Positions 21,007-63,231 of a DNA stretch of 64,000 bases are shown here, piece after piece. A program made the position numbers and the translations under genes. Source of the stretch: an uncultured Ignavibacteria bacterium (lineage in GTDB: Bacteria; Zixibacteria; MSB-5A5; DSPP01; RBG-1); the NCBI GenBank assembly GCA_964399055.1, contig CAYNPJ010000001.1, positions 582,935 to 646,934 of the forward strand. Reading direction: 5' to 3'. Position 1 is the first letter of the stretch, and each line of letters opens with the position of its first letter. The notes under the pieces are model-generated. The model did no database searches. It was not told where the DNA came from and was given only the letters and a program-made list of their open reading frames with translations.

Positions 21007-21009
21007 GGG

Positions 21010-24045: not shown

Positions 24046-24275
24046 CAAATGAAATCTCTTTACTGTCTTCTTTCTTGAAGTAACGGTTCGAGTTGCGTCC
24101 GGGCAATTCTGCCAAACATAGGACTATTCTGCCCGTAAAAACTCAGAGAAAAAGGTTGACTTTTGAAAATTAAAGAGAAATATTAAATATTTATTATTCT
24201 GAATGCCTGTCAGGATTGATTTCCTTGCCAAGCAAGATAGAAGCATAAAATAGCATAAGAGGAGAGAAAAAATTT

Positions 24276-26298: not shown

Positions 26299-26306
26299 GA
26301 GGACCG

Positions 26307-27599: not shown

Positions 27600-27673
27600 G
27601 TAGAAAATATGCCTTGCTTTCAGAAGAGTGGTAGGGGTCTGCCACTCTTTTTAATTCCCTAGAAAGGAAGAAT

Positions 27674-29089: not shown

Positions 29090-29790
29090 AAAAGGAATGC
29101 TGGGCCTTTAATTTAGGCCGGGTTGATTACGCCGAGGCTCTGAATTTGCAGAGAGAGTTAGTTTCTCTGCGCCAGAGAGAGTCATTGCCAGAATTGCTGC
29201 TGCTGGTCGAACACGACCATGTCATCACCTTCGGCAGGGCAGGGAGAGAAACAAATTTGCTTTCTGACGAAGAGGCTCTAAAAAGAGCCAGTGTAGAGGT
29301 TCATTACATAGAGCGGGGAGGGGATGTAACCTATCATGGGCCCGGCCAGTTGGTGGCTTATCCGATTTTTGACTTAAATTACTGGAAGAAGGACTTACAT
29401 TTGTTCCTGCGCAATTTGGAAGATGTGATAATTCAGACTTTATCTGAGTACGACTTAAAGGCCGAAAGAATAAAGGGCTTGACCGGCGTGTGGGTGGAAG
29501 GCGAGAAAGTAGCTGCCATCGGGGTGGCAGTTAAGAAGTGGATTACTTTGCACGGCTTTGCTCTAAACGTCAACACCGACTTGAGCTATTTTACATTCAT
29601 TCATCCGTGCGGGATTACGGACAGGCCGGTGACCTCGATGCAGGAGTTGTTAGGAGAAAAAGTTGATTTTGAAGAAGTAATCAAGATTGTGCAGGAAAAG
29701 TTTGCCGAAGTATTCGGACTGAAGATAGAAATTGGCGCCCCAAATTTTCTTCATAAGATATTAGTTGCTCAGCCCACTCTTTCTACCTAA
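29086..29790 (+). CDS. lipB: lipoyl(octanoyl) transferase
   Basis: ATGA overlap with the lpdA stop. LipB-like core RGGDVTYHGPGQLVAYPI. Confidence 0.8.
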   Translation: MKKECWAFNLGRVDYAEALNLQRELVSLRQRESLPELLLLVEHDHVITFGRAGRETNLLSDEEALKRASVEVHYIERGGDVTYHGPGQLVAYPIFDLNYWKKDLHLFLRNLEDVIIQTLSEYDLKAERIKGLTGVWVEGEKVAAIGVAVKKWITLHGFALNVNTDLSYFTFIHPCGITDRPVTSMQELLGEKVDFEEVIKIVQEKFAEVFGLKIEIGAPNFLHKILVAQPTLST

Positions 29791-29873
29791 ATCGGAAAAT
29801 ACCTCTTCTAAAAGAAAGAGGAACTAAATCCCCTCTCCTATGAGGGGAGGGTTAGGGAGGGGTTAGTTATTTT

Positions 29874-29977
29874 CGTCATTGCGAGGAGAGCCGATATATC
29901 GGCTCGACGTGGCAATCCCCCAGAATAAACGCTCGGTATCCATTCACTGGAATCACCACGCCCCGAGTGGCCGGGGC
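29874..29977 (+). repeat. MITE-like element with terminal inverted repeats CGTCATTGCGAG / CTCGCGATGAC
   Basis: 11/12-nt TIR in a 104-nt non-coding unit. The same left TIR recurs at 35604. Confidence 0.4.
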
Positions 29978-30113
29978 TCGCGATGACTGCTGACATTATT
30001 GTTTCATCTCTCGATGTAAAAAGGTTTAGTTCGGTTAACGTCTGTGGATTGCTTGACTTGCCGCCAGAAAGCTGATAGATTGCCTCTTGTGATTTTCTTC
30101 ACCAGAAGCAGTT

Positions 30114-30503
30114 ATGTCCAAGAAAATTATTTCCACCGATAGAGCGCCCCAGGCAGTAGGTCCTTATTCTCAGGCGGTAGTGTTGGAGAATCTGAATCTG
30201 GTCTTTGTCTCCGGGCAGATTGCCATTCCACCGGGGTCAAAAGAGTTAATCCGGGGAGGAATCGTCGAAGAGACTAAGCAGGTTTTGGAGAATCTTAAGA
30301 ATATCTTGGAAGCGGCGGGGAGTTCCCTCGACAAAGTGGTCAAGACCACGGTCTTCTTGCGCAGTATGGATGACTTCGGCCTGATGAATGAAACTTACAA
30401 TCAGTATTTAAAGACTAATTTTCCGGCGCGCTCCACGGTCCAGGTGGCCGCGCTCCCCAAGGGAGCCAGAGTAGAAATAGAAGCTATAGCATATCTAGAT
30501 TAA
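30114..30503 (+). CDS. ridA: RidA/YjgF-family reactive intermediate deaminase
   Basis: 129 aa with typical RidA conservation (APQAVGPYSQAV, VFVSGQI, PARS.VQV). Confidence 0.85.
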   Translation: MSKKIISTDRAPQAVGPYSQAVVLENLNLVFVSGQIAIPPGSKELIRGGIVEETKQVLENLKNILEAAGSSLDKVVKTTVFLRSMDDFGLMNETYNQYLKTNFPARSTVQVAALPKGARVEIEAIAYLD

Positions 30504-30515
30504 AAAGGAGAAGAG

Positions 30516-31724
30516 ATGATTGATTTCAGCTGGAGCGATGAACATATAGCAGTCAGAGAATTGGTGCGGGAATTCTGTCAGAAGGAAGTTGCCCCCAATT
30601 TAGTCGAAAGAGACCGGACCCAGAAATTCGACCCGGATATACTGAAAAAGATGGCCGAGAAAGACATCTTAGGCATTTGCATTCCGGCCAAATACGGCGG
30701 AGCAGGTTTTGACTACATCAGCCTAGGGGTCTGCTGCGAAGAGTTGGAATACTGTGATACTTCACTCAGAGTAATATTGTCGGTGCATATCGGCTTAAAC
30801 AGTCTGACTTTACTCTCCTGGGGAACTGAGGAACAGAAACAGAAATATTTAGTCCCTAATGCCAAGGGAGAAAAAATCGGGACCTTCGGATTAACCGAGC
30901 CAAATGCCGGCTCAGACGTGGTCGGTATCCTGAGCACTGCAGATGATAAGGGAGACCATTATCTCTTGAACGGCGAGAAGATGTGGATTTCCTTAGCTGA
31001 GGTGGCTGATAATTTCTTGATTTTTGCCTGGACCGACCGGGAGAAGATGAAAAAAAGAGACCACTCCGGCATTACCGCTTTTATTGTCGAACGCCACTGG
31101 AAAGGGATAACCACCGGAGCTATTCACGGCAAATTAGGTATTCGGGCCGGTAATACCGGTTGGATTTCGATGCAGGACGTGAAAGTCCCCAAAGAAAATC
31201 TTCTCGGAAAAATCGGAGAAGGTTTTCACATAGCTATGTTCTGTTTGGACCAGGGTAGATACACAGTGGCTGCCGGCGCAACCGGTCTGGTCAAAGCCTG
31301 CTTGGACGCCTCGATTAACTATTCCAAGACCAGAAAAACTTTCGGACATCTGATTGCCGAACATCAGTTAGTCAAAGAGATGATTGCCGGCATGGAGTCA
31401 GATTATCATGCGGCTCAGTTGCTATGGTTAAAAGCTGGCTGGCTAAAGAATATGGGTATTCGCAACACCAAAGAGACTTCCTTAGCCAAGTGGTATGCCA
31501 CAGTTGCTTCAGAGCGGGCCGCGTCAGATGCGGTCCAGGTCCATGGCGCTTATGGCTACTCAGATGAATATCCGGTGGAGAGATTCTATCGCAACTGCAA
31601 AGGGGCGGTTATCTACGAAGGCTCGCGGGAGATTCACAAGCTGATGCAGGCGGATTATGTGCTGGGCTACCGTCAGGATAAGCCGACCAGGTGTACTCTG
31701 CCGAAGTACGGGGAGATAAAGTAA
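30516..31724 (+). CDS. acyl-CoA dehydrogenase
   Basis: ACAD N-terminal, middle and C-terminal domains ([22 protein letters not shown]). Confidence 0.85.
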
Positions 31725-34624: not shown

Positions 34625-35506
34625 GTGAGGCAAGTATACATGGAAGGCTCATCTCGCTTCTTAAAATGGCTATTCTTGATGCAGGTGATAATATGTTTAG
34701 TAGCGAGTCTTAAGGCACAGCCACTTTTACTCTCACTTACTCAAGTCGTAGAGGATACTTCTCAATCGCAGGTCGATACTGTCGATTTCAAGCAATCCTT
34801 AGTAAGCCCCGATACGATAATCCCACAGCTCTCTTTCCGTAACGCAGACATTCGTGATATCTTTGATGCTTTGGCTAAAACCTACAATCTCAACCTCTGG
34901 ATAGATGAAAAAGTTCAAGGGAAAACCACTCTCCACTTGGTCAATGTCTCACTCAACAGCGTGTTTGAATTCTTGGCTCAGCAGAATCAATTAGTCTATG
35001 AAAAATCGGACAACATAATCAAGGTATACAAGGCTCCTCCTCCGCCTCCTGAGCCTCTGAAGATTTTCTATTCGCTCAGTTTCCTTTCGGTTGACTTGAA
35101 GGATGCAGACCTGGCTGAAGTTATCAGGACTCTGGTTAAGGAGAGTAAAGAAAACATAGTCATAGAGGCCGGGGTTATAGGCAGAATAAGTGGCACCCTT
35201 GAGTCAATAGAGTTTGAAAAGGGTTTAAAAGCCCTGATGATTTCCAATGGTTATGTGGTCAGAAAGATTGAGGGGATTTACCACATTGACCGGCTGCCCA
35301 CCGAGCAGCAGGCCCCTACTTTCAAAGGGGTTTATTCAGTCAGCTACAAAGATGACAAGCTCAATATAGATATCGGCAATGCCCAACTATCCAACCTTGT
35401 CCGCCAGATAGCCGAGATGGCCAAGCTGGATATTTTCGTATATGGAGACCTGCAAGGGCAGATTTCGGTCTTTCAGCCGGAGATTCCGTGTCTTCGTCAC
35501 TTGTGA
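34625..35506 (+). CDS. STN/secretin-N-domain protein
   Basis: LSFRNADIRDIFDALAKTYNLNLWIDEKVQGKTTLHLVNVSLNSVFEFLAQQNQLVY fits the secretin/TonB short N-terminal (STN) domain. No secretin barrel domain present. Confidence 0.45.
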   Translation: MRQVYMEGSSRFLKWLFLMQVIICLVASLKAQPLLLSLTQVVEDTSQSQVDTVDFKQSLVSPDTIIPQLSFRNADIRDIFDALAKTYNLNLWIDEKVQGKTTLHLVNVSLNSVFEFLAQQNQLVYEKSDNIIKVYKAPPPPPEPLKIFYSLSFLSVDLKDADLAEVIRTLVKESKENIVIEAGVIGRISGTLESIEFEKGLKALMISNGYVVRKIEGIYHIDRLPTEQQAPTFKGVYSVSYKDDKLNIDIGNAQLSNLVRQIAEMAKLDIFVYGDLQGQISVFQPEIPCLRHL

Positions 35507-41658: not shown

Positions 41659-41874
41659 ATGGATGAAAACAAAAGAGACAGGTTCTTAAGATTAGCAGCA
41701 AAACGAACGAATTCGATCTTAAAAAAGATTCGCGTATTAGGTAACTGTGCTAATAGAAATTACTACGAATACACAGAAGAGGACTTGCGGAAAATATTCG
41801 CGGCTATTGAGAAGCAGCTTCAAGCTGTAAAGTCGAAATTTCAGCCTTCAGGGGAAAGGGAGTTCAAACTCTGA
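41659..41874 (+). CDS. hypothetical small protein (first gene of island operon)
   Basis: 71 aa, helical and basic (FLRLAAKRTNSILKKIRVLGN). Stop overlaps the next start (TGATG). Low GC. Confidence 0.4.
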   Translation: MDENKRDRFLRLAAKRTNSILKKIRVLGNCANRNYYEYTEEDLRKIFAAIEKQLQAVKSKFQPSGEREFKL

Positions 41875-42572
41875 TGCAGCCGATACATGAAATGTTCCCG
41901 GGGTTACCTGAGTTTTCACCAGATACCTACTTGAAGATTGGCATGGATGATTTGGTAACTGTATCGCTTCACTTTCTATTGGAATCAGGAAAGCCACCCA
42001 CTTTTGAGAACTTAGTTGCGCTTGCTTACTCATTGTTTCCCCAACGATTTTCGATGGTTGGTTATGCTCAGTGGCCCGATTCTGCAATTATTAACAAATG
42101 TTGGCTTAGGTGCAGGACTGATAAGAAGCTGATTTCTGGAAACGTTGCATCCGGTTTTCAACTCACGCCAAAGGGCAAGTTCGTTACAGAAAAAACGCTC
42201 GCGAAACTTCTACCTTCGTTGGAATTTGACAAAGACGGAAAAGGAAAACTTCAGAGAAAAGGCGGAGACAGAAGGACAGCAGCCGGGCGAGTGGTTTCTA
42301 GGGTCGAAAAAAGTACTGCATTCAATAAGTACAAGTCTGATGGTCACGTTGAAAACGTATCAGAGTACGAACTCTGTGATATTCTGTACTGCACTTTAGA
42401 AAGTTCCGCAGAGACTCTTAAAAAAAATTATGAGTTGGTCAGCCAATATTTAAAGGAGTATTCCAGAGATGACTTGGTCAAATTCATCGACATGCTCAAA
42501 GTAAAATTCAGCAGTAAATTTCTGGCCTCTAAAATTCGTGGCGGAATGCTTCCAAAGAAAGGGCATTGTTGA
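41874..42572 (+). CDS. hypothetical protein (second gene of island operon)
   Basis: 232 aa, no recognisable motif. Translationally coupled on both sides. Confidence 0.45.
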   Translation: MQPIHEMFPGLPEFSPDTYLKIGMDDLVTVSLHFLLESGKPPTFENLVALAYSLFPQRFSMVGYAQWPDSAIINKCWLRCRTDKKLISGNVASGFQLTPKGKFVTEKTLAKLLPSLEFDKDGKGKLQRKGGDRRTAAGRVVSRVEKSTAFNKYKSDGHVENVSEYELCDILYCTLESSAETLKKNYELVSQYLKEYSRDDLVKFIDMLKVKFSSKFLASKIRGGMLPKKGHC

Positions 42573-42583
42573 AGGAGTATAGC

Positions 42584-44467
42584 ATGGTAATACTTCAAAA
42601 GAAGAAACTCCAAGCGAGTTCAAGGGCGTTTCAAACTCTAGCATCTCAAGCAATAGGAAATGACCTTCTAAAGGGCTTAGTTGAACTTATAACAAATAGT
42701 GATGATAGTTATTTTCGACTTGAGAAAAATGGTGTAACGACTTCCGGTAAAATAGAGATCGAAATTGAGAGACGGCCCAGAAGTAGACAAACTTTGGTGC
42801 GAGTTCGGGACTTCGCACAGGGTATGGATAATCAGCAGATGGATGAATGTATTGCTCATAATGGTGATGATGTTAGTGGCGACACTGGACGAGGCTTTTT
42901 TGGTATGGGTTTAAAAGATACGATCATAAATTTTGGCAAAGGAGAAATTTATTCAGTCAAAGACGGTAGATATTATAAATGTCGACTTGAAGGAGATGAT
43001 TTTACTCCATTTCTACCACAAAGGGTTGATGCCAAGCTAAGGAAGGAACTCGGCATTGCAAATAATGGTACTCTCGTCTCGATTTTAGTCATGAATCCTA
43101 GAGTGAGGATACCTCAATTCGATACCTTGCGCGAAGATTTACAAAACCATGTTCTATTAAGATTGATAATGAAGGATCCAAATAGAACTATAATCCTCCG
43201 CGACCTGCGTACCGGCACAGAAAATACCTTATTCTACCAGGAACCAGAAATAGAAGAGATTTTGTACGACGATAATTTTGGATTGGATGACTATCCTGAG
43301 GCGGACCTCCATCTTACAATTAAAAAGGCTAGGGGAGCTTTCCAATTGAGTCAAAATGGCTCTTGTAGAACAGGTGGAATATTATTTACAACTAGAAGAA
43401 CGGTTCATGAATCTACGATGTTGGAATATGATTCAGACCCTTTTGCGGCGAAACTATTTGGGGAGCTGAGATGTGAATACATTTACGAATTGCAAAAAAC
43501 AGCCGAACCAGTCGTAGACCGAAATAGGGATGGACTGAGAAGAAATCATCCTTTCACTAGATCCTTATTTAGGAAAATATTTCAGATATTAAAATTGATA
43601 GTTGATGACGAGAAACAAAAGCAAAAAGACCGTGAACGTGAATTAGAAAATGAAAACACGCGACGTCGATTTCGAGAAGCAGTACGTGAGTTGAATCAAA
43701 TTGCTTCAGTAGAGCTAGAGGATATCGGTGGTCTCGGTCCTGGCCCTGGCCCGATTACGAAAAAGCCGAAGTTTCCTGCAAATGATTTTGAATTCATTCC
43801 CGATACGTATAGGATAGTTGTTGGAAAACGCCAGGATTTGAATCTCAGGTTAATGCTGGGCCCGCTTCTGCGCACTGGTTCTATTGTAAATTTCTCGACG
43901 GAATGTACGGGTCTAACTGTGATTAATCCGGTAGAGAAAATACCAGAATCGGACGATTCGACATTGCCGGTTAATATGAAGGTGACAATAGAGGCTCATA
44001 GGCATGGGGCAGAGGGGTTTGTGGCTGCCTCCTGCGGCGACAAAAAAGCCGTTGCTCTCGTTGAGGTAGTTTCTCTTCCAGACGATATTGAAAGACCCCA
44101 TCAACCGAGGAGAGCTGGACTATTCAGAGATATCAAGTACGAGAACCAGGACAATGTTCAACGGGCAAGATTTGAACAAGCTACAGGGATTATCTACATA
44201 AATACATCTGCGCCGTCGGTAAGGCTGTATTTTGGCCCTGAGGGTGAGGGTCAAGACCTAGGTCCTAATAGAGTATTACAGGCTGAGCTTGTAACTGAGC
44301 TCGCATGTAGAGAGATAGCCAAGATTAAGCAGTCAAAATCGCTTATTGATCTCCCGCCCGGCATTGAGCCAATAGACGCGTTTTACAATGAGATCAACAG
44401 GCTAAAGGGAGCATACGCGGAAAAAATTCATGAATGTCTTGTCGATTCAAAATTCAGAAGAAGTTGA
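42584..44467 (+). CDS. GHKL/Bergerat-fold ATPase-domain protein (HATPase_c-like N-terminus, large unknown C-terminal region)
   Basis: RBS AAGGAG before the ATG at 42584. N-box-like LVELITNSDDS, then G1/G2-like HNGDDVSGDTGRGFFGMGLKD. Roughly 450 aa of uncharacterised C-terminal sequence. Confidence 0.55.
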   Translation: MVILQKKKLQASSRAFQTLASQAIGNDLLKGLVELITNSDDSYFRLEKNGVTTSGKIEIEIERRPRSRQTLVRVRDFAQGMDNQQMDECIAHNGDDVSGDTGRGFFGMGLKDTIINFGKGEIYSVKDGRYYKCRLEGDDFTPFLPQRVDAKLRKELGIANNGTLVSILVMNPRVRIPQFDTLREDLQNHVLLRLIMKDPNRTIILRDLRTGTENTLFYQEPEIEEILYDDNFGLDDYPEADLHLTIKKARGAFQLSQNGSCRTGGILFTTRRTVHESTMLEYDSDPFAAKLFGELRCEYIYELQKTAEPVVDRNRDGLRRNHPFTRSLFRKIFQILKLIVDDEKQKQKDRERELENENTRRRFREAVRELNQIASVELEDIGGLGPGPGPITKKPKFPANDFEFIPDTYRIVVGKRQDLNLRLMLGPLLRTGSIVNFSTECTGLTVINPVEKIPESDDSTLPVNMKVTIEAHRHGAEGFVAASCGDKKAVALVEVVSLPDDIERPHQPRRAGLFRDIKYENQDNVQRARFEQATGIIYINTSAPSVRLYFGPEGEGQDLGPNRVLQAELVTELACREIAKIKQSKSLIDLPPGIEPIDAFYNEINRLKGAYAEKIHECLVDSKFRRS

Positions 44468-44585
44468 TTCCCTAGCTTGGCCGGATAATAAAAATCTTAA
44501 AATTGCTGCGACAATACATAAAGCCAGCCCTTATTTATAGTTCAACAAGTTCACTATAAGAGGACTGGCCTTCGGTCAGCATCCT

Positions 44586-44634
44586 TCGACTGCGCTCGGT
44601 ATATGCTGAGGCGGTAGGATTCGAACCTACAATC
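44586..44634 (-). repeat. direct repeat of the tRNA-Asn 3' end plus downstream flank (att-like remnant A)
   Basis: TTCGACTGCGCTCGGTATATGCTGAGGCGGTAGGATTCGAACCTACAATC matches the 3' 29 nt and flank of the tRNA at 48457-48528. Confidence 0.55.
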
Positions 44635-44703
44635 CTTCCCCAGAGCTTGCTATTGTATTCAAGACCGAGTAACTTACCCCCCAGACCATTCAAATTGAGA
44701 GAC

Positions 44704-46332
44704 ATGAAAAACGCCTTACTAATCTGTCCTGAATTCTCGCCCCTGGGATTCTGGAACTACAAGGGCGTTTGCAGATTAGTCGGGGCCAAATATCCGGCTG
44801 CGCCTCTGGGGATCATAACTCTGGCGGCGCTTCTGCCGCAGGAATGGGATATCAGGCTGATCGACATGAACGTAACCGAATTACATGATTCTGATATCGA
44901 ATGGGCCGACCTGGTTTTTATCGGGGGCATGCTGCCGCAGCAGGTTGCGTTTTTGAAGCTGATTGACAGGGTTCACGCCCGCGGTAAGAGAGTTGTTTCC
45001 GGCGGGCCTGACCCAACCTCACAACCCGAAGTCTATAAGAGTTCTGATTATCTGGTTTTAGGTGAAGCCGAAGATACTATCCATTCATTCCTGAATGATC
45101 TATACCGGGGCGCGCAGAAAGGGGTATATTTCCCATCTGAGAATAGACCTGACCTTAGCAGCAGTCCTGTTCCACGGTTTGATTTACTCACTTTTAATGA
45201 TTACCTGATGGTCGGCATCCAGTTTTCCCGGGGCTGTCCCTATAACTGTGAATTCTGCGATATAATTGAGCTTTACGGCCGGGTACCGCGTACAAAATCA
45301 CCTCAGCAAATTGTAAACGAGCTTGGTGTACTTTACGACCTGGGGTACAGAGGTCATATTGATTTTGTAGATGACAATTTCATAGGCCATAAAGGAAAAG
45401 TAAAACAGACTCTGAGAGAGCTCAAGAAATGGTCGCAGGCACATAATTATCCATTTTTCTTCTCGACCGAGGCGTCTGTTAATCTCGCAGATGACCAGGA
45501 GCTTCTCGGACTGATGCGGGATATAGACTTCAGGTACGTATTCATTGGCATAGAATCGGTAAGCGAGGAAGTACTGCGATCCAATCAGAAAAGACAGAAC
45601 CTCAATCGAAAGCTCTCTGACGATCTTCATAAAATCTACAATTATGGAATGGTGGTTAACGGGGGCTATATCGTCGGATTCGATAATGAAACCAGCCAGA
45701 CCACCAGGCTAATTGCCGACTCTATCGAACAGAGTAAGATATGTATGGCTATGGTAGGTTTGCTATACGCCCTCCCCGGTACTCAGCTGACTCGTAGACT
45801 GGAACAAGAAAACCGGCTATCTGAGCATAGCAACCGGTTGGATCCAGGCAACCGGGATAACGTTGACCAGGGCACCAGCGGACTTAATTTTGCCACCCAA
45901 AGACCCAGAAATGAGATAATAGATGATTTTGTGTACATACTGAAGAAAACATACAATGCAAGGAAATACTTCAATAGATGTTTGAGGCTGGGCCGGGCCT
46001 TGAAAGTCAGTAGGAAACACCGGCCTCCATTTTCCAGGAAAGTGATCGCCGCGCGTGCCTTAATCCGGCTGGTCAGACAGCTGGGGTTCTGGCCTTCGAC
46101 CGCTTACTATTTTTGGAGAAACAGCCTGATCATGTTGCTGGTCCGCCCGTCCGCTTTAGCTGAAGTAGTCAATCTTATGGCGATGTACATTCATTTTAGC
46201 AAACAATCAGAATATATCATTGAGCTGATGGCTCGTAATTCGCGGAATGGCGATGAACTGGATAAAGCGGCCACTGCCGCTGTGGCGAAGGAAGCAAAAG
46301 AGATTCTCAGCGGTCAGCCTAACCATCACTGA
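44704..46332 (+). CDS. B12-binding domain radical SAM protein
   Basis: N-terminal cobalamin-binding-like domain (ALLICPEF...IGGMLP). Radical SAM CxxxCxxC SRGCPYNCEFCDI. Start set at the internal ATG 44704. Confidence 0.8.
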   Translation: MKNALLICPEFSPLGFWNYKGVCRLVGAKYPAAPLGIITLAALLPQEWDIRLIDMNVTELHDSDIEWADLVFIGGMLPQQVAFLKLIDRVHARGKRVVSGGPDPTSQPEVYKSSDYLVLGEAEDTIHSFLNDLYRGAQKGVYFPSENRPDLSSSPVPRFDLLTFNDYLMVGIQFSRGCPYNCEFCDIIELYGRVPRTKSPQQIVNELGVLYDLGYRGHIDFVDDNFIGHKGKVKQTLRELKKWSQAHNYPFFFSTEASVNLADDQELLGLMRDIDFRYVFIGIESVSEEVLRSNQKRQNLNRKLSDDLHKIYNYGMVVNGGYIVGFDNETSQTTRLIADSIEQSKICMAMVGLLYALPGTQLTRRLEQENRLSEHSNRLDPGNRDNVDQGTSGLNFATQRPRNEIIDDFVYILKKTYNARKYFNRCLRLGRALKVSRKHRPPFSRKVIAARALIRLVRQLGFWPSTAYYFWRNSLIMLLVRPSALAEVVNLMAMYIHFSKQSEYIIELMARNSRNGDELDKAATAAVAKEAKEILSGQPNHH

Positions 46333-46477
46333 GGCGGTAGGATTGGCCTGTTCCGCCTTCGGCTCTGTCTTCGACCCTGAGGCTCAGACCCGAAGGGAGG
46401 TCCTCGACTCGAAGAGAGCCAGCCGAAGGCTACGTCGAGGAAAACCTACAATCTTCCGGTTAACAGCCGGCTGCACT
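46329..46477 (-). repeat. tRNA-Asn fragment (3' end through D-arm), interrupted by a roughly 100-nt MITE-like insertion in the T-loop (att-like remnant B)
   Basis: CTGAGGCGGTAGGATT [insert 46345-46444] CCTACAATCTTCCGGTTAACAGCCGGCTGCACT is identical to the tRNA at 48457-48528 over 16 plus 34 nt, but diverges in the acceptor 5' strand. Confidence 0.5.
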
Positions 46478-46624
46478 CCCCTGGTGCCAATTAGAGCGAG
46501 ATCAAAGCCGGCTCTACATTAGCAAGCTCAAAAAAAGCGTTGACATTCCCAATATTCGGCCTAAATTTCAATAGAGGTCGTTTCAGCCTATTTAGATAGT
46601 AAACTAACAGCCAAGGAGGAATAT

Positions 46625-48259
46625 ATGTCAATGTCTTCATTAAGGCTGGGGTTAATCTTAGTCATCGCATTAATCCACGCATCCGTAATTTTCAGCCAGG
46701 AAGAGGTGTACGAAGCCTGGGTAGCCCGCTACAACGGCCCGGGTAATTCTGACGACCAGGCCACAGCCCTGGTCCAGGATAACAGCGGGAACGTATACGT
46801 GACAGGTTTTAGCAGAGGAAATGGGACAGGCTGGGATTATGCAACCATAAAGTACTCTCCTGCCGGAGAGGAGTTATGGGTAGCCCGCTACAACGGGCCG
46901 ATAAGCTTTAACGATTTGGCCTACGCATTAGCAGTAGACCAGAGCGGAAATGTGTACGTTACCGGTGGAAGCTTTGACAGCAGCGGGCTCGATTATGCCA
47001 CGATTAAATATTCTCCCTCCGGGGAGAGTCTGTGGGTGAGAAGATATAACGGGCCGGGTGATTCGGCTGACTGGGCCAATGACCTGGCAGTTGACCAGGA
47101 GGGCAACGTATACGTGACCGGTCAGAGCGGCGGAATCGGCAGCCAGGATGATTATGCTACCATTAAATACTCTCCTAATGGAGACAGTCTCTGGGTGAGA
47201 AGATACAATGGCATGGGTAATGAGAACGACGTTGCTAAGGCTTTAGCAGTGGATGACAGCGGAAATATTTTGGTAACTGGCTATAGCGTTGATAGTGTCC
47301 GCTCAGCCGATTTCCTGACCATTAAATATTCCCCTAGCGGGGATACTCTGTGGGTGAGAAGATTAAACGGTCCGGGAAACATGTCCGACAACGCGAATGA
47401 TATAGCCTTGGATGACAGCGGCAATGCGTATGTGACAGGTCATAGCTGGGGTGTCGGCACTTCGCACGACTATCTCACGGTCAAGTACTCGGCTGCCGGG
47501 GCGATGTTGTGGGCCAGCAGATATGACGGTCCGGATGGCAATACGGAATCCGCCTATGCCATATCGGTTGACCCTTATTACAATGTCTGTGTGACCGGTT
47601 ACAGCCTGGGCAGTACCAGCTCAATGGACTATGCCACCGTAAAATATTCCTCTGACGGAGACACCGTCTGGGTAAGAAGGCATAATGGTTCAGACAATGC
47701 TGCCGACCTTGGCAATGCCATAGAGGCAGACCATCTCGGCAATGTCTATGTGACCGGTGAGAGCCCTAACAGTGGTTCTTTCACCGATTTTGTAACCATA
47801 AAATACAGCTCATCAGGCAACAGCACATGGTTGAAACGTTACAACGGCCCTGGAAATGGTAGCGATCGAGCCGAAGATTTGGAATTAGACGACAGTGGTA
47901 ATGTGTATGTAACTGGCCACAGCGCTGGTGATGAATCTTCCGATGATTATGCCACTATTAAGTATTCTCCCTGCTCTGCTGAGAGCCCCTTAGCAGGTGA
48001 TGCCAGCTCGGACCAAACTTATACTTTGGTAGATATCATTGCCACCGTGAACTATATTTTCAATAGACCCGGTTTCGCGGCCTGTTCCTCTAACTCCGCC
48101 ATTTGCTGGTTATCCGACAGATTGTGTCGGGGGGACTGGAATGGCTCTGGTGATGTGACCTTAGGGGATGTGATTCAGGGAGCAAACTTCATTTTTGATA
48201 AATCCGGCGGTCCTTGGTCTCCGGTTTCTTCCTTGGGCTGCTGTCCTTATTCTCCTTAA
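46625..48259 (+). CDS. secreted SBBP beta-propeller-repeat protein with dockerin-like Cys-rich C-terminal domain
   Basis: Signal peptide. At least 8 tandem roughly 50-aa repeats with the YVTG / DYATIKYS / LWVRRYNGPGN motifs (SBBP type). Conserved C-terminal roughly 90 aa ending in CCPYSP. Confidence 0.6.
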   Translation: MSMSSLRLGLILVIALIHASVIFSQEEVYEAWVARYNGPGNSDDQATALVQDNSGNVYVTGFSRGNGTGWDYATIKYSPAGEELWVARYNGPISFNDLAYALAVDQSGNVYVTGGSFDSSGLDYATIKYSPSGESLWVRRYNGPGDSADWANDLAVDQEGNVYVTGQSGGIGSQDDYATIKYSPNGDSLWVRRYNGMGNENDVAKALAVDDSGNILVTGYSVDSVRSADFLTIKYSPSGDTLWVRRLNGPGNMSDNANDIALDDSGNAYVTGHSWGVGTSHDYLTVKYSAAGAMLWASRYDGPDGNTESAYAISVDPYYNVCVTGYSLGSTSSMDYATVKYSSDGDTVWVRRHNGSDNAADLGNAIEADHLGNVYVTGESPNSGSFTDFVTIKYSSSGNSTWLKRYNGPGNGSDRAEDLELDDSGNVYVTGHSAGDESSDDYATIKYSPCSAESPLAGDASSDQTYTLVDIIATVNYIFNRPGFAACSSNSAICWLSDRLCRGDWNGSGDVTLGDVIQGANFIFDKSGGPWSPVSSLGCCPYSP

Positions 48260-52339: not shown

Positions 52340-53878
52340 ATGGGGAAGAGACCGCTGGCCATTCTTCTGTGGGTAGGATTCATCCTATTTTTAGTCTCAG
52401 CGGCAAAGGCCGAAGTGTCAGCGGAAATTGGAGATGACATCCCGGTGGATATTGCAGTTGACCAGAATGGGAATGCGTATGTGACTGGTCTTAGTTACGC
52501 TCCGATTACTGGATTGGATTTTGCCACTTTAAAATATTCATCCGTAGGAGAGCTACTATGGAAAAGGCGTTATCCAGTCCAGGGACATGGTGATGATGTT
52601 CCGGTCAAGTTGGCCCTGGATTATGCGGGGAACTTATATCTCACTGGATATACCGATGATTACCCTACCAGTAATAATTATGCCACTATCAAATACTCTC
52701 CTGTGGGTGGTCTTTTGTGGTCAAAAAGTTATGGCGGGCCTGGCGGTGGCAGCGATGCTCCAACCGATCTGGAGTTAGATGACTCAGGCAATGTTTTTGT
52801 AACCGGTTATGCTTATTTTAATCCAGGTGGCAAAAATTATGTCACAGTGGCTTATACTTTTACAGGGCTCACGATTTGGGGTGCCATATATGATGGGCCG
52901 ATAAATTCAGAAGACCGAGCTGTAGCTTTAGAAGTTAGTCCAGACGGCAATATCTATGTTACGGGTACCAGTGTTAGCCGCCTTCTCTGGTACGATAATC
53001 CATGGGGACCTGGTTATATGGGTCCGGATTATGATTATGCTACAATAAAACTGAATTCTCAAGGCGATACAGATTGGGTGCGGAGGTTCGGCAATTATTA
53101 TGATTATGATTCGCCTAATGACATGGCGCTAGATGATTCTGGGAATATCTTTATAACTGGCATTTCAGGAACTATCAGTTATAAACCAGATGGTAGCGTA
53201 AGATGGACAAATAAAAATCTTCAAGGCAATTTAATAGTTTGTGACACTTCCGGCAATATCTACATACTTAATAAGGAAAGCGTCTCCAAGTATTCCGCGT
53301 CTGGAAGCTTCATTTGGTTTGCGAACCACGGAGGGAATGACTTAGCCTTAGACAAGAACGGCAATGTATATATAGCTGGAGGGAGTTCTGATTTTTTAAC
53401 GGTCAAACTCCCTTCTGGCGGAAGTAATGCTTGGGTAAGACATTATGATGGGCCAGCCGGTGGAACTGACCAAGCCACGGCCATTGCAGTGGACGACAGC
53501 GGGAACGTTTATGTTACTGGAAAAAGCCAGGGGATAGGAACATGTTACGATTATGCCACGGTAAAATACTCGGCAGATGGAAATCAACTCTGGATTAATC
53601 GTTTCAATAATTACTGTCTGGCAATTCCAGGTGATGCCGATGCTAGTAGCGATTTTACCTTAGGAGATATAATAGCCATAGTCAATTATTATTTCAACAA
53701 GCCGGGCTGTTCTCCTCAGCCTTTGTGTTGGTTGTCAAATTTACTATGTCGCGGAGATTGGAATGGTAGCGGCACTATATCTCTGGGAGACATAATTCGG
53801 GGCGTAAATTATTTTTTCAACAAGCCGGGCGGCCCCTGGAATGCACTTCCCAGCGGACCATGCTGCCTAGTGCCGTAG
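52340..53878 (+). CDS. secreted SBBP beta-propeller-repeat protein with dockerin-like Cys-rich C-terminal domain
   Basis: Signal peptide. YVTG and DYATIKYS-type repeats. C-terminal domain homologous to those at 47972-48259 and 62965-63231, ending in CCLVP. Confidence 0.6.
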   Translation: MGKRPLAILLWVGFILFLVSAAKAEVSAEIGDDIPVDIAVDQNGNAYVTGLSYAPITGLDFATLKYSSVGELLWKRRYPVQGHGDDVPVKLALDYAGNLYLTGYTDDYPTSNNYATIKYSPVGGLLWSKSYGGPGGGSDAPTDLELDDSGNVFVTGYAYFNPGGKNYVTVAYTFTGLTIWGAIYDGPINSEDRAVALEVSPDGNIYVTGTSVSRLLWYDNPWGPGYMGPDYDYATIKLNSQGDTDWVRRFGNYYDYDSPNDMALDDSGNIFITGISGTISYKPDGSVRWTNKNLQGNLIVCDTSGNIYILNKESVSKYSASGSFIWFANHGGNDLALDKNGNVYIAGGSSDFLTVKLPSGGSNAWVRHYDGPAGGTDQATAIAVDDSGNVYVTGKSQGIGTCYDYATVKYSADGNQLWINRFNNYCLAIPGDADASSDFTLGDIIAIVNYYFNKPGCSPQPLCWLSNLLCRGDWNGSGTISLGDIIRGVNYFFNKPGGPWNALPSGPCCLVP

Positions 53879-60471: not shown

Positions 60472-63231
60472 ATGAGGCTCGAAAACTTGCAGTTAACTGG
60501 AATCTCAATCCTCATACTTATGATAATTATTACCACACCCGTACGTGCTGGATTCGAACCACGCGTAGATTATCCCACAGGCATAGCTCCCCAATCAGTA
60601 GTTGCAGAAGACCTAGATGGGGATGGACTGAAGGACATTGCAATTGGACAGAATGAGTTATTTATTACGGTGCTAAAGAACAACGGAAATGCGAATTTCG
60701 GTACCAGGGTCGATTATCCCGTCTCAGGAGACGCTCCTCGTGAAATTGTTGCTGGCGATCTTGACCAGGACGGCAATACAGATTTAGCGGTAACACAAAC
60801 GTATGATAATGCGATTTCCATAATGTGGAACAATGGTGACGGTTCCTTTTCTCAAATTACCTATAATACGGGAGCATATCCGACCGGCATTGTTCTTGTA
60901 GATTTGGACAGCGACGGCCTTTTGGATGTTGTGACATCCAATGTAAATGGCCACTCGATATCAATCCATGTAAATGCCGGAAACAGGGCTCTCTACCAAC
61001 ATATAGACTACAAAGTAGGCATCAACCCACGATCGCCGTTCGCCTCTGATCTGGATAATGACGGGGATCAAGACCTTGTTGTGGCCGACCCTACGTCTGA
61101 TAGTATCTTCGTACTACTAAACGATGGCAGTGGCAGTTTGGGCTTACCAGTTGGTTATGAGTCTGGTGATAAACCTGCTGATGTCGTAGCTTCTGATTTT
61201 GATGGTGATGGAGATTTTGATTTAGTGGTCCCAAATAATGGTACAAATCCTAATTTTGGAACATCAGTATCAGTATTCAAAAATAGAGGGGACGGGACAT
61301 TTGAAGGAAGAATAACTTTCCAAACGGGTATTGCTCCTCGCAGCGTCGTTGCAGTGGATTTTGACGGAGACGGGGATCAAGATCTAGGAATAGCCTGCGG
61401 AGTGGGAGGAATTTTGTCTATTCTTTACAATGATGGGGTCGGTGTATTTGCTGAAAGAATCGATTATGTTACCGGTCAAGGACCTTGGTCAGTTTTTGCT
61501 GCAGATCTCGATGGAGATGGCGATCAAGATATAATAGTACCAAATCAGAACGCAGCATCAGTGTCAGTATTCCTAAATCATGGCCACGGGGGCTTTAGTG
61601 AAAAACAAGACTACCGAACGGGTTTGGAACCGTTGTCCGTTGCTCCTGCAGATCTAAATGGAGATGGGTTTAAGGATTTAGCAGTTGCAAACTATAACTC
61701 AGCCGGTACTGGATCTATCTCAATATTTATGAATCGAGGTAATGGAACATTTCTGCCAAAAGTTGACTACTTAGTTTATAGTCCTGTTTCCATAATTGCG
61801 ACAGACATAGATGGTGATGCAGATTTCGATGTAGTAGTAGCTAATGACTTCAGTTCTACCTTATCCATACTAAAGAATAATGGCGAGGGAACTTTCGCAA
61901 CTCCAGTTGAATATAGTACAGGATCGTGGCCGAGTTCAGTCTCCGCTTCAGACATAGACAATGACAATGATCAGGACCTAGTTGTTACAAACGCGGGGGG
62001 CAACACCGTTTCTGTTCTCAAGAACTACGGCAATGGGACTTTTGCTCCGAAAGTCGACTATGAAACAGGCTTAAGACCTAGCTCAGTATTTGTCTCAGAC
62101 ATGAATAGTGATGGTGATGAGGACCTAATTGTAGCGAATCCAGGGACCGCAGAATCGTCAGGAGATAAGGTTTCCATATTAGAGAATAACGGAAATGGCA
62201 CGTTTGCTCCGAAAGTCGACTACAGTGCTGGCCCATATCCCTTCTCGTTGTATGTTGCAGACCTCAATGGAGATGGTGCCAAAGACATCCTGGTGACAAA
62301 CGTTTTGCAGAACTCTATTTCTATATTAAAGAACAACAAGAACGGGACTTTCACATGGTCAGCTGTAGGGACTGGTCATTACCCCTACTCCGTATTTGCT
62401 TCTGACGTGGATGGAGACCAGGACCTGGACCTGATGACAGCCAATTTTTATGGCAATACATTCACACTCTTAAAGCAAACGTCAACCCTCTCTTTCGACG
62501 AGAGGCGGTACTATGTCACTGGTATCACACCCAAGTCAATTGTGGCATCTGATATTGATAATGATGGCGATCCGGATTTGATCGTAGCAAACAGCCGGAG
62601 TAATACAGTTTCCGTGTTTAGAAACCTATCTAACAACTTTCGCTGGATTACAATTCAAGCATACTCCCCTGTTGACCTTATAGTTACTAACCCCAATGGC
62701 GATAGTATAGGACCGTCCTTTAGCAGTATTGAAAATGCTACATACAATATTTCTAATGACAGTATTTACATACCTAATGCTGTAATCGGGCCATACAAGA
62801 CCAGAATTGTAAGGGACACACTAGACCAATCTGGTCAGACAATCTATTCTCTGGGAGTTCAGATTGGAGTAAATCCTGAGAATATGATTATCTCCGATGC
62901 TTCGGTTCCTGGCGTGGGCCAGAGCAATGAATTTGTAACTGGATACAATCCTGCCTCTCCGGAGTGTTTATCTACACCTGGGGACGCAAATGCTGATGGC
63001 TCTCTTACTCTTGCGGACATAATTTCGACTGTTAACTACATCTTTGGTAAAAGCGGGTGCATCCCTGTTTCCATTTGTTGGCTCAAGGGTATCTCGTGTC
63101 GAGGGGACTGGGACGGCTCCAGCACAGTTACGCTTTCAGACGTCATCCGCGGCGTCAACTACATCTTCAACAAGCCCGGCGGCCCCTGGGCTCCTTTACC
63201 CTCTGGCGCCTGTTGTCTCCCTGTCCCCTGA
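60472..63231 (+). CDS. secreted FG-GAP/VCBS-repeat beta-propeller protein with dockerin-like Cys-rich C-terminal domain
   Basis: Signal peptide. More than 12 FG-GAP-like DxDxDGxxD repeats (DLDGDGLKDIAIG, DFDGDGDFDLVV, ...). C-terminus homologous to the other two CC-tail domains, ending in CCLPVP. Confidence 0.6.
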   Translation: MRLENLQLTGISILILMIIITTPVRAGFEPRVDYPTGIAPQSVVAEDLDGDGLKDIAIGQNELFITVLKNNGNANFGTRVDYPVSGDAPREIVAGDLDQDGNTDLAVTQTYDNAISIMWNNGDGSFSQITYNTGAYPTGIVLVDLDSDGLLDVVTSNVNGHSISIHVNAGNRALYQHIDYKVGINPRSPFASDLDNDGDQDLVVADPTSDSIFVLLNDGSGSLGLPVGYESGDKPADVVASDFDGDGDFDLVVPNNGTNPNFGTSVSVFKNRGDGTFEGRITFQTGIAPRSVVAVDFDGDGDQDLGIACGVGGILSILYNDGVGVFAERIDYVTGQGPWSVFAADLDGDGDQDIIVPNQNAASVSVFLNHGHGGFSEKQDYRTGLEPLSVAPADLNGDGFKDLAVANYNSAGTGSISIFMNRGNGTFLPKVDYLVYSPVSIIATDIDGDADFDVVVANDFSSTLSILKNNGEGTFATPVEYSTGSWPSSVSASDIDNDNDQDLVVTNAGGNTVSVLKNYGNGTFAPKVDYETGLRPSSVFVSDMNSDGDEDLIVANPGTAESSGDKVSILENNGNGTFAPKVDYSAGPYPFSLYVADLNGDGAKDILVTNVLQNSISILKNNKNGTFTWSAVGTGHYPYSVFASDVDGDQDLDLMTANFYGNTFTLLKQTSTLSFDERRYYVTGITPKSIVASDIDNDGDPDLIVANSRSNTVSVFRNLSNNFRWITIQAYSPVDLIVTNPNGDSIGPSFSSIENATYNISNDSIYIPNAVIGPYKTRIVRDTLDQSGQTIYSLGVQIGVNPENMIISDASVPGVGQSNEFVTGYNPASPECLSTPGDANADGSLTLADIISTVNYIFGKSGCIPVSICWLKGISCRGDWDGSSTVTLSDVIRGVNYIFNKPGGPWAPLPSGACCLPVP

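What the first reader, a model, noticed from the sequence alone, without database searches (positions are those of the whole stretch)
62965..63231. Undescribed dockerin-like Cys-rich C-terminal domain ending in a CC motif, shared by three beta-propeller surface proteins
The last roughly 90 aa of the proteins at 46625, 52340 and 60472 align throughout: GDA(N/D)xxxxxTLxDII..VNY.F(N/G)KPG - C..(P/S)..CWL....CRGDW(N/D)GS...TL.D(V/I)I.G.N(Y/F).F(N/D)K.GGPW...(P/S).G.CC(L/P)..P. The two DxxxDG..T(L)xD(I/V)I..(V)NY(I/F)F segments look like the paired EF-hand calcium-binding repeats of dockerins. They are joined by a Cys-containing linker and followed by a GGPW...CC tail, with 5-6 conserved Cys in total. 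The passenger domains differ (SBBP versus FG-GAP propellers) while the tail is conserved. That pattern suggests a sorting or anchoring module (a cohesin-like partner, or a new C-terminal secretion/attachment signal) distinct from the T9SS CTD seen at 3600-3885
Basis: seen in the sequence. Interest (0 to 1): 0.65.

Follow-up and report, generated by a model that had tools for sequence, protein, structure and literature searches.

The report
Cysteine-clasped dockerin tail of Zixibacteria proteins
Three secreted beta-propeller proteins of a Zixibacteria genome end in the same ~90-residue calcium-binding "dockerin" plug, a cysteine-stapled variant that standard domain libraries miss, and relatives in this phylum also encode an unrecognised cohesin-like socket, which suggests a cellulosome-style protein docking system.

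Summary
Three ORFs (46625-48259, 52340-53878, 60472-63231) share an 87-95 aa C-terminal tail (56-64% identity, z>23 against shuffles) behind different passengers (SBBP x2, FG-GAP).

The tail is a divergent dockerin, not a new fold:
- AlphaFold model has pLDDT 88, and the top 27 PDB matches are all dockerins.
- Calcium-ligand positions 1/3/5/12 are kept in both repeats.
- It aligns end to end (hhalign 99.7%) with simpler Zixibacteria tails ending in CCL that pass Pfam PF00404.
- The window tails themselves fail PF00404 (at best 15 vs 22.9 bits) and match no NCBIfam model.

What is special is a six-cysteine framework:
- a Cys five residues before the first loop;
- a Cys pair in a linker insert (C..CW);
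- a Cys before repeat 2;
- an invariant CC 1-7 residues from the stop.

The family has about 90-280 clusters at 50% identity, almost always C-terminal, on signal-peptide proteins with many passenger types. All named close hits are Zixibacteria.

I also found a Pfam-invisible cohesin-like module in this lineage (pLDDT 93, top 45 PDB hits all cohesins). It is fused to this tail, or to a T9SS CTD, including in a close relative of the window's organism.

Most likely role: calcium-dependent docking to cohesin-like partners. This is a new variant of a known kind.

The parts
60472..63231 (+). Gene W3: signal peptide, FG-GAP beta-propeller repeats, an unassigned ~110-aa pre-tail domain, and the C-terminal dockerin-like tail (919 aa)
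   Evidence: ORF. FG-GAP_3 E 5e-93 and FG-GAP E 7e-55. Tail HMM hit at aa 837-928 of the stop-to-stop frame, E 2.8e-52.
62965..63231 (+). W3 tail, the finding itself: 88 aa plus stop, from the N-terminal clasp Cys to the CCLPVP end
   Evidence: AlphaFold2 model of this sequence with alignment A2 has pLDDT 88 and pTM 0.79. Foldseek against the PDB: the top 27 hits are all dockerins.
62980..63045 (+). Repeat 1: calcium-binding loop plus helix (GDANADGSLTLAD-IISTVNYIF)
   Evidence: Loop positions 1, 3, 5 and 12 are D, N, D and D. Across 147 family members the counts are D 145, N 127, S/D/N 141 and D 147. Helix at model residues 20-30.
63046..63096 (+). Linker with the Cys-pair insert (GKSG-C-IPVSI-C-WLKGIS), absent from simpler dockerins
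   Evidence: The hhalign alignment shows this as a 7-residue insertion relative to PF00404-positive tails. Linker cysteines number two in nearly all of the 147 members, none in 3, and three or four in 2. C42 is present in 143/147 and W43 in 145/147.
63097..63168 (+). Repeat 2: Cys, then calcium-binding loop plus helix (C-RGDWDGSSTVTLSD-VIRGVNYIF)
   Evidence: C49 147/147, R50 143, D52 143, N/D54 136, S/D/N56 133, D63 147/147. Helix at model residues 61-71.
63169..63231 (+). C-terminal clasp segment NKPGGPW...G.CC-LPVP plus stop
   Evidence: W79 142/147, C87 147/147, C88 146/147. The protein ends 1-7 residues after CC in 139/147 members. The model pairs residues 88-89 with residues 4-5 next to the N-terminal Cys (DSSP).
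46625..48259 (+). Gene W1: signal peptide, SBBP beta-propeller and the same tail (tail at 47972-48259, with the longer linker variant FAACSSNSAICW)
   Evidence: The sequence is identical to P0094, which is in NCBI on a 1,435,403-bp contig.
52340..53878 (+). Gene W2: signal peptide, SBBP/NHL beta-propeller and the same tail (tail at 53615-53878)

Best explanation
The tail is a dockerin module: two tandem calcium-binding loop-helix repeats that fold into the dockerin three-helix bundle. It belongs to a Zixibacteria-specific subfamily reinforced by three probable disulfides. One is a local loop in an insert between the repeats (C..CW). The other two tie the N-terminal Cys and the Cys before repeat 2 to the invariant C-terminal CC, forming a covalent version of the N/C-terminal 'clasp' that stabilises classical dockerins.

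It sits at the extreme C-terminus of Sec-exported proteins with many different passengers. It most likely works as a plug that binds, in a calcium-dependent way, to cohesin-like modules encoded elsewhere in the genome. Some of those modules carry a T9SS C-terminal domain and would be fixed on the cell surface. Others carry their own dockerin and could act as adaptors or chains. The three beta-propeller proteins of the window would thereby be held on the cell surface or in an extracellular protein assembly.

Shown here: the shared tail, the dockerin fold (predicted), the conserved Ca ligands, homology to PF00404 dockerins, C-terminal position, passenger diversity, and the existence of cohesin-fold modules in the lineage that are fused to this tail.

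Inferred: disulfide pairing, calcium binding, the cohesin-dockerin interaction itself, and surface location.
For: Fold
- AlphaFold2 model: pLDDT 88, pTM 0.79, two 11-residue helices after the two loops.
- Foldseek against the PDB: ranks 1-27 are all dockerins, probability 0.44-1.00 (0.84 or higher for ranks 1-26), TM to target 0.34-0.82.

Sequence
- Profile search against the PDB: 8 of the 10 weak hits are dockerins.
- 19 of 24 family tails give sub-threshold PF00404 hits, best E 3e-6.
- hhalign against simpler Zixibacteria tails: probability 99.7%, E 1.7e-25, covering the N-terminal Cys, the middle Cys and the CCL end. All 12 of those simpler tails pass PF00404, with E down to 1e-14.
- Ca-ligand positions 1, 3, 5 and 12 are conserved in both repeats across 147 members.

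Modularity
- 4232, 283 and 92 clusters at E below 1e-3, 1e-10 and 1e-30 respectively.
- The match ends 1-7 aa after CC in 139/147 members.
- Passengers include SBBP, FG-GAP, DUF7450/7451, Laminin_G_3, peptidases M28/M4/M23/M20, lipases and beta-helix.
- N-termini look like signal peptides.

Cysteines
- The canonical count is six (88/147). Linker Cys are two in nearly all members and none in 3. Extra post-repeat-2 Cys are mostly none or two.
- The model pairs residues 4-5 with 88-89.
- Classical dockerins use a non-covalent N/C clasp that is needed for stability and cohesin binding (PMC3821032).

Partner
- A ~165-aa domain found in small Zixibacteria proteins (signal peptide, domain, dockerin) models at pLDDT 93. 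Its top 45 PDB matches are all cohesins, E 4e-6 to 6e-4. Pfam sees no cohesin in it.
- This domain is fused to window-type tails in P0027, P0072, P0104, P0125, P0145 and P0153.
- It is fused to a T9SS CTD in P0196, inside a tandem array of paralogues.
- P0027 lies on the same 1.64-Mb contig as a PyrG 89% identical to the window's. That contig is syntenic with window 39-60 kb at 64-97% amino-acid identity.

Precedent
- Cloacimonadota have C-terminal dockerin enzymes plus a cohesin scaffoldin with a T9SS CTD (PMC8542988).
Against: - No cohesin-like gene lies in the 64-kb window, and the rest of this genome could not be read. A partner in this organism is therefore inferred from a close relative.
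- The window tails fail the Pfam dockerin cut-off.
- The three genes are scattered among housekeeping genes, with no operon partner.
- The cell is a diderm: KDO genes, Omp85 and T9SS parts are present. The tail proteins have no T9SS CTD, so their route across the outer membrane is unexplained.
- The cohesin assignment rests on a predicted fold, with TM about 0.6 and 6-16% identity.
- No binding, calcium or disulfide experiment exists, and the model coordinates could not be inspected.
Confidence: 0.6

Rival explanations
1. The tail is primarily a sorting or secretion signal. A dedicated machinery would recognise the folded Cys-clasped module, or its CC(LPVP) end, to move the protein across the outer membrane or to attach it covalently, in the way the T9SS CTD works.
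For: - Strict C-terminal position on many unrelated passengers.
- An invariant CC 1-7 residues from the end.
- The same cohesin-like passenger is found with either this kind of tail or a T9SS CTD, so the two C-terminal modules are exchanged in evolution.
- The outer-membrane route of these proteins is otherwise unexplained.
Against: - The fold and the Ca ligands are those of a dockerin, a binding module.
- There is no transmembrane or hydrophobic end and no known sorting motif, and no NCBIfam sorting-signal model hits.
- No candidate processing enzyme is conserved next to the genes.
- C-terminal position and passenger diversity are equally typical of classical dockerins.
- Dockerin-like modules of the same kind also occur internally in related proteins (P0027, P0028).
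Confidence: 0.12
2. The tail is a dockerin-fold calcium-binding module that does not use a cohesin. It would bind a non-protein ligand of the envelope or the environment (LPS or capsule sugars, mineral or metal surfaces), or it would simply stabilise the passenger.
For: - No cohesin-like module of either type was found in the window.
- Cargo is dominated by beta-propellers and peptidases rather than CAZymes.
- Many non-cellulosomal dockerin-like modules have no known partner (general knowledge, Peer et al. 2009, as cited in PMC8542988).
Against: - Cohesin-fold modules are abundant in the same lineage and are physically fused to this tail.
- The helix faces are near-invariant and symmetric in both repeats (VNYIFNKPG, N28/N69, F31/F72). 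This fits one common protein partner, as in species-wide dockerin conservation (inference from the cellulosome literature).
Confidence: 0.15
3. The similarity is a chance or compositional artefact, or a recent local duplication without function.
For: None beyond the fact that all three copies lie within 17 kb.
Against: - z above 23 against shuffles.
- DNA identity is only 59-66%, so these are old paralogues.
- There are hundreds of homologues in other genomes with invariant columns.
- The structure model is confident.
Confidence: 0.01

Closest known systems
Type I dockerin modules of cellulosomes (Pfam PF00404; for example PDB 4dh2, 5nrk, 2ccl, 6kge)
   Same: - Two tandem ~22-residue calcium-loop plus helix repeats with D/N at loop positions 1, 3, 5 and D at 12.
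- The same predicted fold (TM to target 0.7-0.82).
- C-terminal position on secreted proteins.
- N and C termini brought together (clasp concept, PMC3821032).
- Near-symmetric repeats.
   Different: - Fails the PF00404 cut-off.
- Ser rather than Asp is commonest at loop position 5, and Trp follows the first Asp of loop 2.
- There is a 7-11 residue Cys-pair insert between the repeats.
- It has a conserved KPGGPW...CC extension and six conserved cysteines; no Cys or disulfide is mentioned in the clasp paper.
- The host is a diderm Zixibacteria organism.
- Cargo is propellers, peptidases and lipases rather than CAZymes.
Simple Zixibacteria dockerin tails ending in ...GVCCL (for example RBG-1 proteins RBG1_1C00001G0575-0577, P0166-P0168)
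   Same: Homologous end to end, including the N-terminal Cys, the Cys before repeat 2 and the terminal CC (hhalign 99.7%). Same phylum and same C-terminal position.
   Different: These pass PF00404. They lack the C..CW linker insert and the GGPW motif, and they have four rather than six cysteines.
Cloacimonadota (Ca. Stygibacter) cellulosome-like system (PMC8542988)
   Same: A diderm bacterium of a candidate phylum, with signal-peptide enzymes that carry C-terminal dockerins, plus cohesin-bearing proteins with a T9SS CTD for surface attachment. The same logic is inferred here from P0196 and the tail family.
   Different: There the domains are recognised by standard InterPro models and the scaffoldin has tandem cohesins plus CBMs. 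Here both the dockerin (window type) and the cohesin-like module escape Pfam. The cohesin-like modules seen are mostly single, in small proteins. No CBM or CAZyme theme was seen.
NCBIfam NF041540, GC-type dockerin domain-anchored protein
   Same: A curated dockerin-derived C-terminal domain that NCBI names as an anchoring domain.
   Different: Best scores are 12.7-24.6 bits on other Zixibacteria-type tails against a 29-bit cut-off, and there is no hit at all on the window tails. The window tail is not a member.
T9SS C-terminal domains (PF18962 Por_Secre_tail, PF13585 CHU_C)
   Same: A C-terminal module on diverse secreted proteins of the same group of bacteria. It is present in the same window (2185-3885) and is swapped with the dockerin tail on the same passenger family.
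   Different: A beta-sandwich fold and a known translocon signal. The tail is helical and calcium-loop based, and it shows no sequence or fold similarity.

Membership tests
Dockerin (Pfam PF00404 Dockerin_1) | Score at or above the Pfam gathering cut-off (22.9 bits) | tested here: not met
   W3 tail scores 15.0 bits (E 0.029), on the first repeat only. W1 and W2 tails give no hit. 19 of 24 family tails give hits at E below 1, best 3e-6.
Dockerin (Pfam PF00404 Dockerin_1) | Two tandem F-hand repeats with Ca2+ ligands at loop positions 1, 3, 5 and 12 | tested here: met
   Among 147 members: D11 145, N13 127 (D 12, S 6), S/D/N15 141, D22 147. In repeat 2: D52 143, N/D54 136, S/D/N56 133, D63 147.
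Dockerin (Pfam PF00404 Dockerin_1) | Dockerin fold (two antiparallel loop-helix motifs with a connecting segment) | tested here: met
   Predicted only. pLDDT 88. Foldseek PDB ranks 1-27 are all dockerins, probability up to 1.00, TM to target up to 0.82.
Dockerin (Pfam PF00404 Dockerin_1) | Homology to accepted members through intermediates | tested here: met
   hhalign of A2 against A6: 99.7%, E 1.7e-25. All 12 members of A6 pass PF00404.
Dockerin (Pfam PF00404 Dockerin_1) | A cohesin partner encoded in the same genome | tested here: inconclusive
   No hit in the 64-kb window with two HMMs. A cohesin-fold module is present in a close relative, on the contig that carries an 89%-identical PyrG. 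The rest of the window's genome was not available.
Dockerin (Pfam PF00404 Dockerin_1) | Ca2+-dependent binding to cohesin | not testable with these tools
   Needs biochemistry or complex prediction.
NCBIfam NF041540 dockerin_GC | Score at or above the 29-bit cut-off | tested here: not met
   No hit for the three window tails at E up to 10. Related simpler tails reach only 12.7-24.6 bits.
T9SS C-terminal domain (type A PF18962 / type B PF13585) | HMM match and beta-sandwich fold | tested here: not met
   No hit in the tails. The model is helical. A true CHU_C domain is detected elsewhere in the window, so the method works on this genome.
EF-hand pair (PF13499 and related) | HMM match above cut-off; helix-loop-helix with Glu at loop position 12 | tested here: not met
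   Only one weak EF-hand_1 hit among 24 tails, E 0.048. Position 12 is Asp, and there is no entering helix, as in dockerins.
Cys-Cys-COOH proteins (NCBIfam NF040734 SaoC) | HMM match; CC at the very C-terminus | tested here: not met
   The only hit is 18.1 bits against an 80-bit cut-off, and it lies in the FG-GAP region (aa 386-456), not the tail. CC is followed by at least one more residue in all 147 family members, 1-7 in 139 of them.

The most novel reading that the evidence does not exclude
Zixibacteria may run a previously unrecognised, Pfam-invisible cohesin-dockerin network adapted to a diderm envelope. Disulfide-clasped dockerins would sit on dozens of non-CAZyme cargo proteins per genome. 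Cohesin-like modules would be anchored through the T9SS. Abundant small cohesin-plus-dockerin proteins, encoded in tandem arrays, could polymerise head to tail into a surface lattice or fibre. In the stronger version, the clasped tail is also the signal that takes folded cargo across the outer membrane.
Probability: 0.2. Interest if true: 0.7.

Novelty: new variant of a known kind. Interest (0 to 1): 0.45.

Why it matters
Cohesin-dockerin pairing is best known from Gram-positive cellulosomes, where it is a workhorse of synthetic biology. This work gives three things.

1. A naturally disulfide-stapled dockerin subfamily. This covalent form of the N/C clasp could be more stable, and it is directly testable.
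2. Evidence that a whole candidate phylum uses dockerin tails on tens of secreted propellers, peptidases and lipases per genome. Standard annotation leaves both the tails (in the window type) and the cohesin-like partners as hypothetical.
3. A concrete hypothesis for how uncultured Zixibacteria organise their cell surface, namely T9SS-anchored cohesins that capture Sec-exported dockerin cargo.

It also shows that Pfam-based surveys undercount cohesin-dockerin systems outside Firmicutes. It does not reveal a new principle.

Tried and rejected
- Pfam and NCBIfam scans of the isolated tails found nothing above cut-off.
- A PDB sequence-profile search gave only weak dockerin hits.
- A PDB sequence search with the cohesin-like profile found nothing, and phmmer of P0027 found only its internal dockerin. 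The fold search was needed to see the cohesin resemblance.
- Literature searches for Zixibacteria with dockerin, cohesin or type IX secretion, and for 'GC-type dockerin', returned no papers.
- I looked for the window's own genome. Exact look-ups show it is in NCBI on a 1.435-Mb contig, but only short Logan contigs could be fetched. A genome-wide count of tails and cohesins in this organism was therefore impossible.
- I considered a relation to Cys-Cys-COOH (SaoC) proteins and rejected it, because the hit is in the FG-GAP region and far below cut-off.
- I considered recent gene conversion between the three tails and rejected it, because DNA identity is only 59-66%.
- The 'M domain' that follows internal dockerins is only weakly similar to the cohesin-like domain (hhalign 37%).
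Full report
OBSERVATION

The stretch 62965-63231 encodes the last 88 residues, plus stop, of a 919-aa ORF at 60472-63231. Equivalent tails end the ORFs 46625-48259 (tail 47972-48259) and 52340-53878 (tail 53615-53878).

The three tails align throughout with 39 invariant columns. They are 56-64% identical in protein and 59-66% in DNA. Alignment scores lie 23-28 standard deviations above shuffled tails. An HMM of the tails finds only these three copies in the six-frame translation of the window.

The passengers differ. Two are SBBP propellers and one is an FG-GAP propeller. All three proteins begin with signal-peptide-like sequences. Each tail has six cysteines.

WHAT THE TAIL IS

Neither Pfam nor NCBIfam assigns the isolated tails. 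The only hit is PF00404 (Dockerin_1) on the first repeat of one tail, at 15.0 bits against a cut-off of 22.9. Four independent lines nevertheless place it in the dockerin superfamily.

1. An AlphaFold2 model built on a 24-sequence alignment (A2) is confident (pLDDT 88, pTM 0.79). It has two 11-residue helices, each following a loop. In a Foldseek search of the PDB, ranks 1-27 are all dockerins, with probability up to 1.00 and TM to target 0.34-0.82. Nothing else scores above noise.
2. A sequence profile of the family against PDB sequences gives ten weak hits, eight of them dockerins. In addition, 19 of 24 family tails give sub-threshold PF00404 hits.
3. In 147 family members, the calcium-ligand positions of an F-hand loop are conserved in both repeats. 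Position 1 is Asp (145 and 143 of 147). Position 3 is Asn or Asp. Position 5 is Ser, Asp or Asn. Position 12 is Asp in all 147 members, in both repeats.
4. Simpler Zixibacteria tails ending in ...GVCCL (alignment A6) all pass PF00404 (12/12, E down to 1e-14). They align with the window-type family end to end at hhalign probability 99.7% (E 1.7e-25). That alignment includes the N-terminal Cys, the Cys before repeat 2 and the terminal CC.

The window type differs from those simpler tails by a 7-11 residue insert between the repeats that carries a Cys pair (C..CW), and by the KPGGPW motif after repeat 2.

CYSTEINE FRAMEWORK

The canonical count is six cysteines (88 of 147 members). C42, C49, C87 and C88 are present in 143-147 of 147.

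Cysteines in the linker number two in nearly all members and none in three. Extra cysteines after repeat 2 are mostly none or two. This pattern is what local disulfide loops would produce.

Some members duplicate the C..CW loop after both repeats (for example P0157). This shows that the unit is loop-helix-KPG-(C..C)W-...-C, repeated twice.

The model pairs residues 4-5, next to the N-terminal Cys, with residues 88-89, at the CC. Classical dockerins hold their termini together by a non-covalent 'intramolecular clasp' that is needed for stability and cohesin binding. The paper describing it mentions no cysteines (PMC3821032).

I therefore read the N-terminal Cys, the pre-repeat-2 Cys and the CC as a covalent clasp. 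This is an inference. I could not inspect the coordinates.

DISTRIBUTION

An exhaustive profile search of 1.84 billion representative proteins gives 4232, 283 and 92 clusters at E below 1e-3, 1e-10 and 1e-30 respectively.

In 139 of 147 members the protein ends 1-7 residues after CC. The commonest endings are CCLPVP, CCLP and CCL.

Passengers are very diverse: SBBP (22 of 85), FG-GAP, DUF7450/7451, Laminin_G_3, TSP_3, peptidases M28/M4/M23/M20, lipases, CarboxypepD_reg repeats and beta-helix. Full-length members start with signal peptides.

All named close relatives are Zixibacteria MAGs. In the fragments fetched alone, RBG-1 has at least 17 ORFs with dockerin-type tails and one other MAG has at least 35.

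The window itself is from Zixibacteria. All named best hits of its CTP synthase belong to that phylum, at 68-81% identity.

The organism is a diderm with T9SS parts:
- KDO genes at 54.8-60.4 kb;
- an Omp85-domain protein;
- a CHU_C type-B T9SS CTD protein at 2185-3885;
- a PorP/SprF-like gene at 3882-4676.

THE PARTNER QUESTION

No cohesin (PF00963) appears in Pfam scans of tail-bearing proteins. However, several of those proteins share a ~165-aa N-terminal domain. That domain also makes up a family of small Zixibacteria proteins with the layout signal peptide, domain, dockerin ending in CCL, encoded in tandem arrays in RBG-1.

Its AlphaFold2 model is very confident (pLDDT 93, pTM 0.88, all-beta). 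Its top 45 PDB matches are all cohesins of types I, II and III, including the non-cellulosomal Archaeoglobus cohesin (E 4e-6 to 6e-4, probability 1.00). Sequence methods do not see this.

This cohesin-like module occurs in three relevant contexts:
- It is fused to canonical window-type tails in P0027, P0072, P0104, P0125, P0145 and P0153.
- It is fused to a T9SS CTD in P0196, which lies in a tandem array of cohesin-like paralogues.
- P0027 lies on a 1.64-Mb JGI contig that also carries a PyrG 89% identical to the window's. That contig is syntenic with window 39-60 kb at 64-97% protein identity. Within 11 kb of P0027 there are two more tail-bearing genes.

A very close relative of the window's organism therefore has both the plug and the putative socket. 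The 64-kb window contains no cohesin-like module of either type searched, and the rest of its genome could not be fetched.

MECHANISM

The best-supported reading has four steps.

1. The three propeller proteins are exported by Sec.
2. The tail folds around two calcium ions and is locked by disulfides in the oxidising periplasmic or extracellular space.
3. The tail then docks onto cohesin-like modules.
4. Some of those modules are surface-anchored through a T9SS CTD. Others carry their own dockerin and could serve as adaptors or form chains.

The near-invariant and symmetric helix faces in both repeats (VNYIFNKPG, N28/N69, F31/F72) fit a single common partner. By analogy with type I dockerins they may also fit a dual binding mode; that is an inference from the cellulosome literature and was not tested.

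A published precedent exists in another candidate phylum of diderm bacteria. In Cloacimonadota, signal-peptide enzymes with C-terminal dockerins and a cohesin scaffoldin with a T9SS CTD were interpreted as a cellulosome-like complex (PMC8542988).

WEAK POINTS

- No partner is shown in this genome.
- The cohesin call rests on a predicted fold.
- It is unexplained how CTD-less dockerin proteins cross the outer membrane.

The last point, together with the evolutionary swapping of dockerin tail and T9SS CTD on the same passenger, keeps alive the rival that the tail is itself a sorting signal. No sorting motif, machinery or processing enzyme was found to support that rival.

GENOMIC CONTEXT

The three genes are not in an operon with one another or with any obvious partner. 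They sit between housekeeping genes:
- a radical-SAM gene, then fpg and ahpC on one side of W1;
- uvrD before W2;
- the gatC, kdsB, pyrG, phzF, kdsA, kdsC, kpsF run before W3.

In the syntenic region of the close relative all three are missing. The W1 region is replaced by a single 446-aa FG-GAP-like protein with a simple ...SGVCCLP dockerin tail. The tail genes are therefore a fast-turning accessory set inserted at variable spots.

COMPARISON AND NOVELTY

- The tail works like a dockerin and is a remote homologue of one.
- It is not a member of PF00404 by Pfam's own threshold.
- It is not a member of NCBIfam's GC-type dockerin model.
- It is unrelated to T9SS CTDs.
- No paper in the searchable library links Zixibacteria with dockerins, cohesins or the T9SS.

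The kind, non-cellulosomal cohesin-dockerin modules, is known. New here are:
- the six-cysteine clasped and loop-inserted variant;
- its scale and restriction to Zixibacteria;
- the Pfam-invisible cohesin-like partner family;
- the largely non-CAZyme cargo.

I rate it a new variant of a known kind, of moderate interest (0.45). The upside case is that the small cohesin-plus-dockerin proteins turn out to build a surface lattice, or that the tail also serves export.

Noticed in passing
window 16673-19789 (+): A 1038-aa ORF combines a Peptidase_M1 domain (aa 327-545) with an Omp85-superfamily barrel (aa 813-1026). This is an unusual fusion of an aminopeptidase-type domain to an outer-membrane barrel.
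   Followed up: no
window 2185-3885 and 3882-4676 (+): A Lamin-tail-domain protein with a CHU_C type-B T9SS C-terminal domain, immediately followed by a PorP/SprF-like gene. The organism therefore has the type-B T9SS cargo/partner arrangement alongside the dockerin tails.
   Followed up: partly
window 41874-48259, 52340-53878 and 60472-63231, compared with L057: In the syntenic region of a close relative (JGI Ga0395807_0000001, 64-97% protein identity for the flanking genes), all three tail genes are absent. So are two hypothetical ORFs (one of 633 aa, with GHKL-ATPase-like motifs by eye) and the radical-SAM/DUF4070 gene. A single 446-aa FG-GAP-like protein with a simple CCLP dockerin tail sits in place of the first block.
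   Followed up: partly
A5 alignment; for example L004 2591-6234, L056 997-4672, P0166-P0196: A ~165-aa domain (DPxG..DT.YI.C...) with no Pfam hit is predicted to have a cohesin fold (pLDDT 93; top 45 PDB hits all cohesins). It occurs in tandem arrays of small proteins with the layout signal peptide, cohesin-like domain, dockerin, and once with a T9SS CTD.
   Followed up: yes
P0026 aa 524-668, P0027 aa 251-400, P0132, P0153, P0098; L045 6149-6901: A second recurrent ~140-aa domain ('M domain') follows an internal PF00404 dockerin in several tail-bearing proteins. It is only weakly similar to the cohesin-like domain (hhalign 37%), and its fold was not tested.
   Followed up: partly
window ~62630-62960 (W3 aa ~720-830): A ~110-aa segment between the FG-GAP propeller and the tail is shared with P0026 and P0050 (IQA(Y/F)SPVDLIVT.P.GDSIG...), read from the sequences. 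It has no Pfam match.
   Followed up: no
window 34625-35506 (+): A 293-aa ORF with only secretin N0 and STN domains and no secretin barrel.
   Followed up: no
window 20158-31724 (+): A housekeeping block: 3-hydroxyacyl-CoA dehydrogenase, enoyl-CoA hydratase, an Mrp/NUBPL-type ATPase, a 2-oxoacid dehydrogenase complex (E1 alpha, E1 beta, E2, E3) with a lipoate ligase, and an acyl-CoA dehydrogenase. Ordinary, and unrelated to the finding.
   Followed up: no
NCBIfam NF045500 (Omp28-related selenoprotein), model positions ~316-376: The C-terminal ~60 positions of this model weakly match Zixibacteria-type dockerin tails (E 8e-4 to 0.25). This hints that the selenoprotein family also ends in a dockerin-like module.
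   Followed up: no
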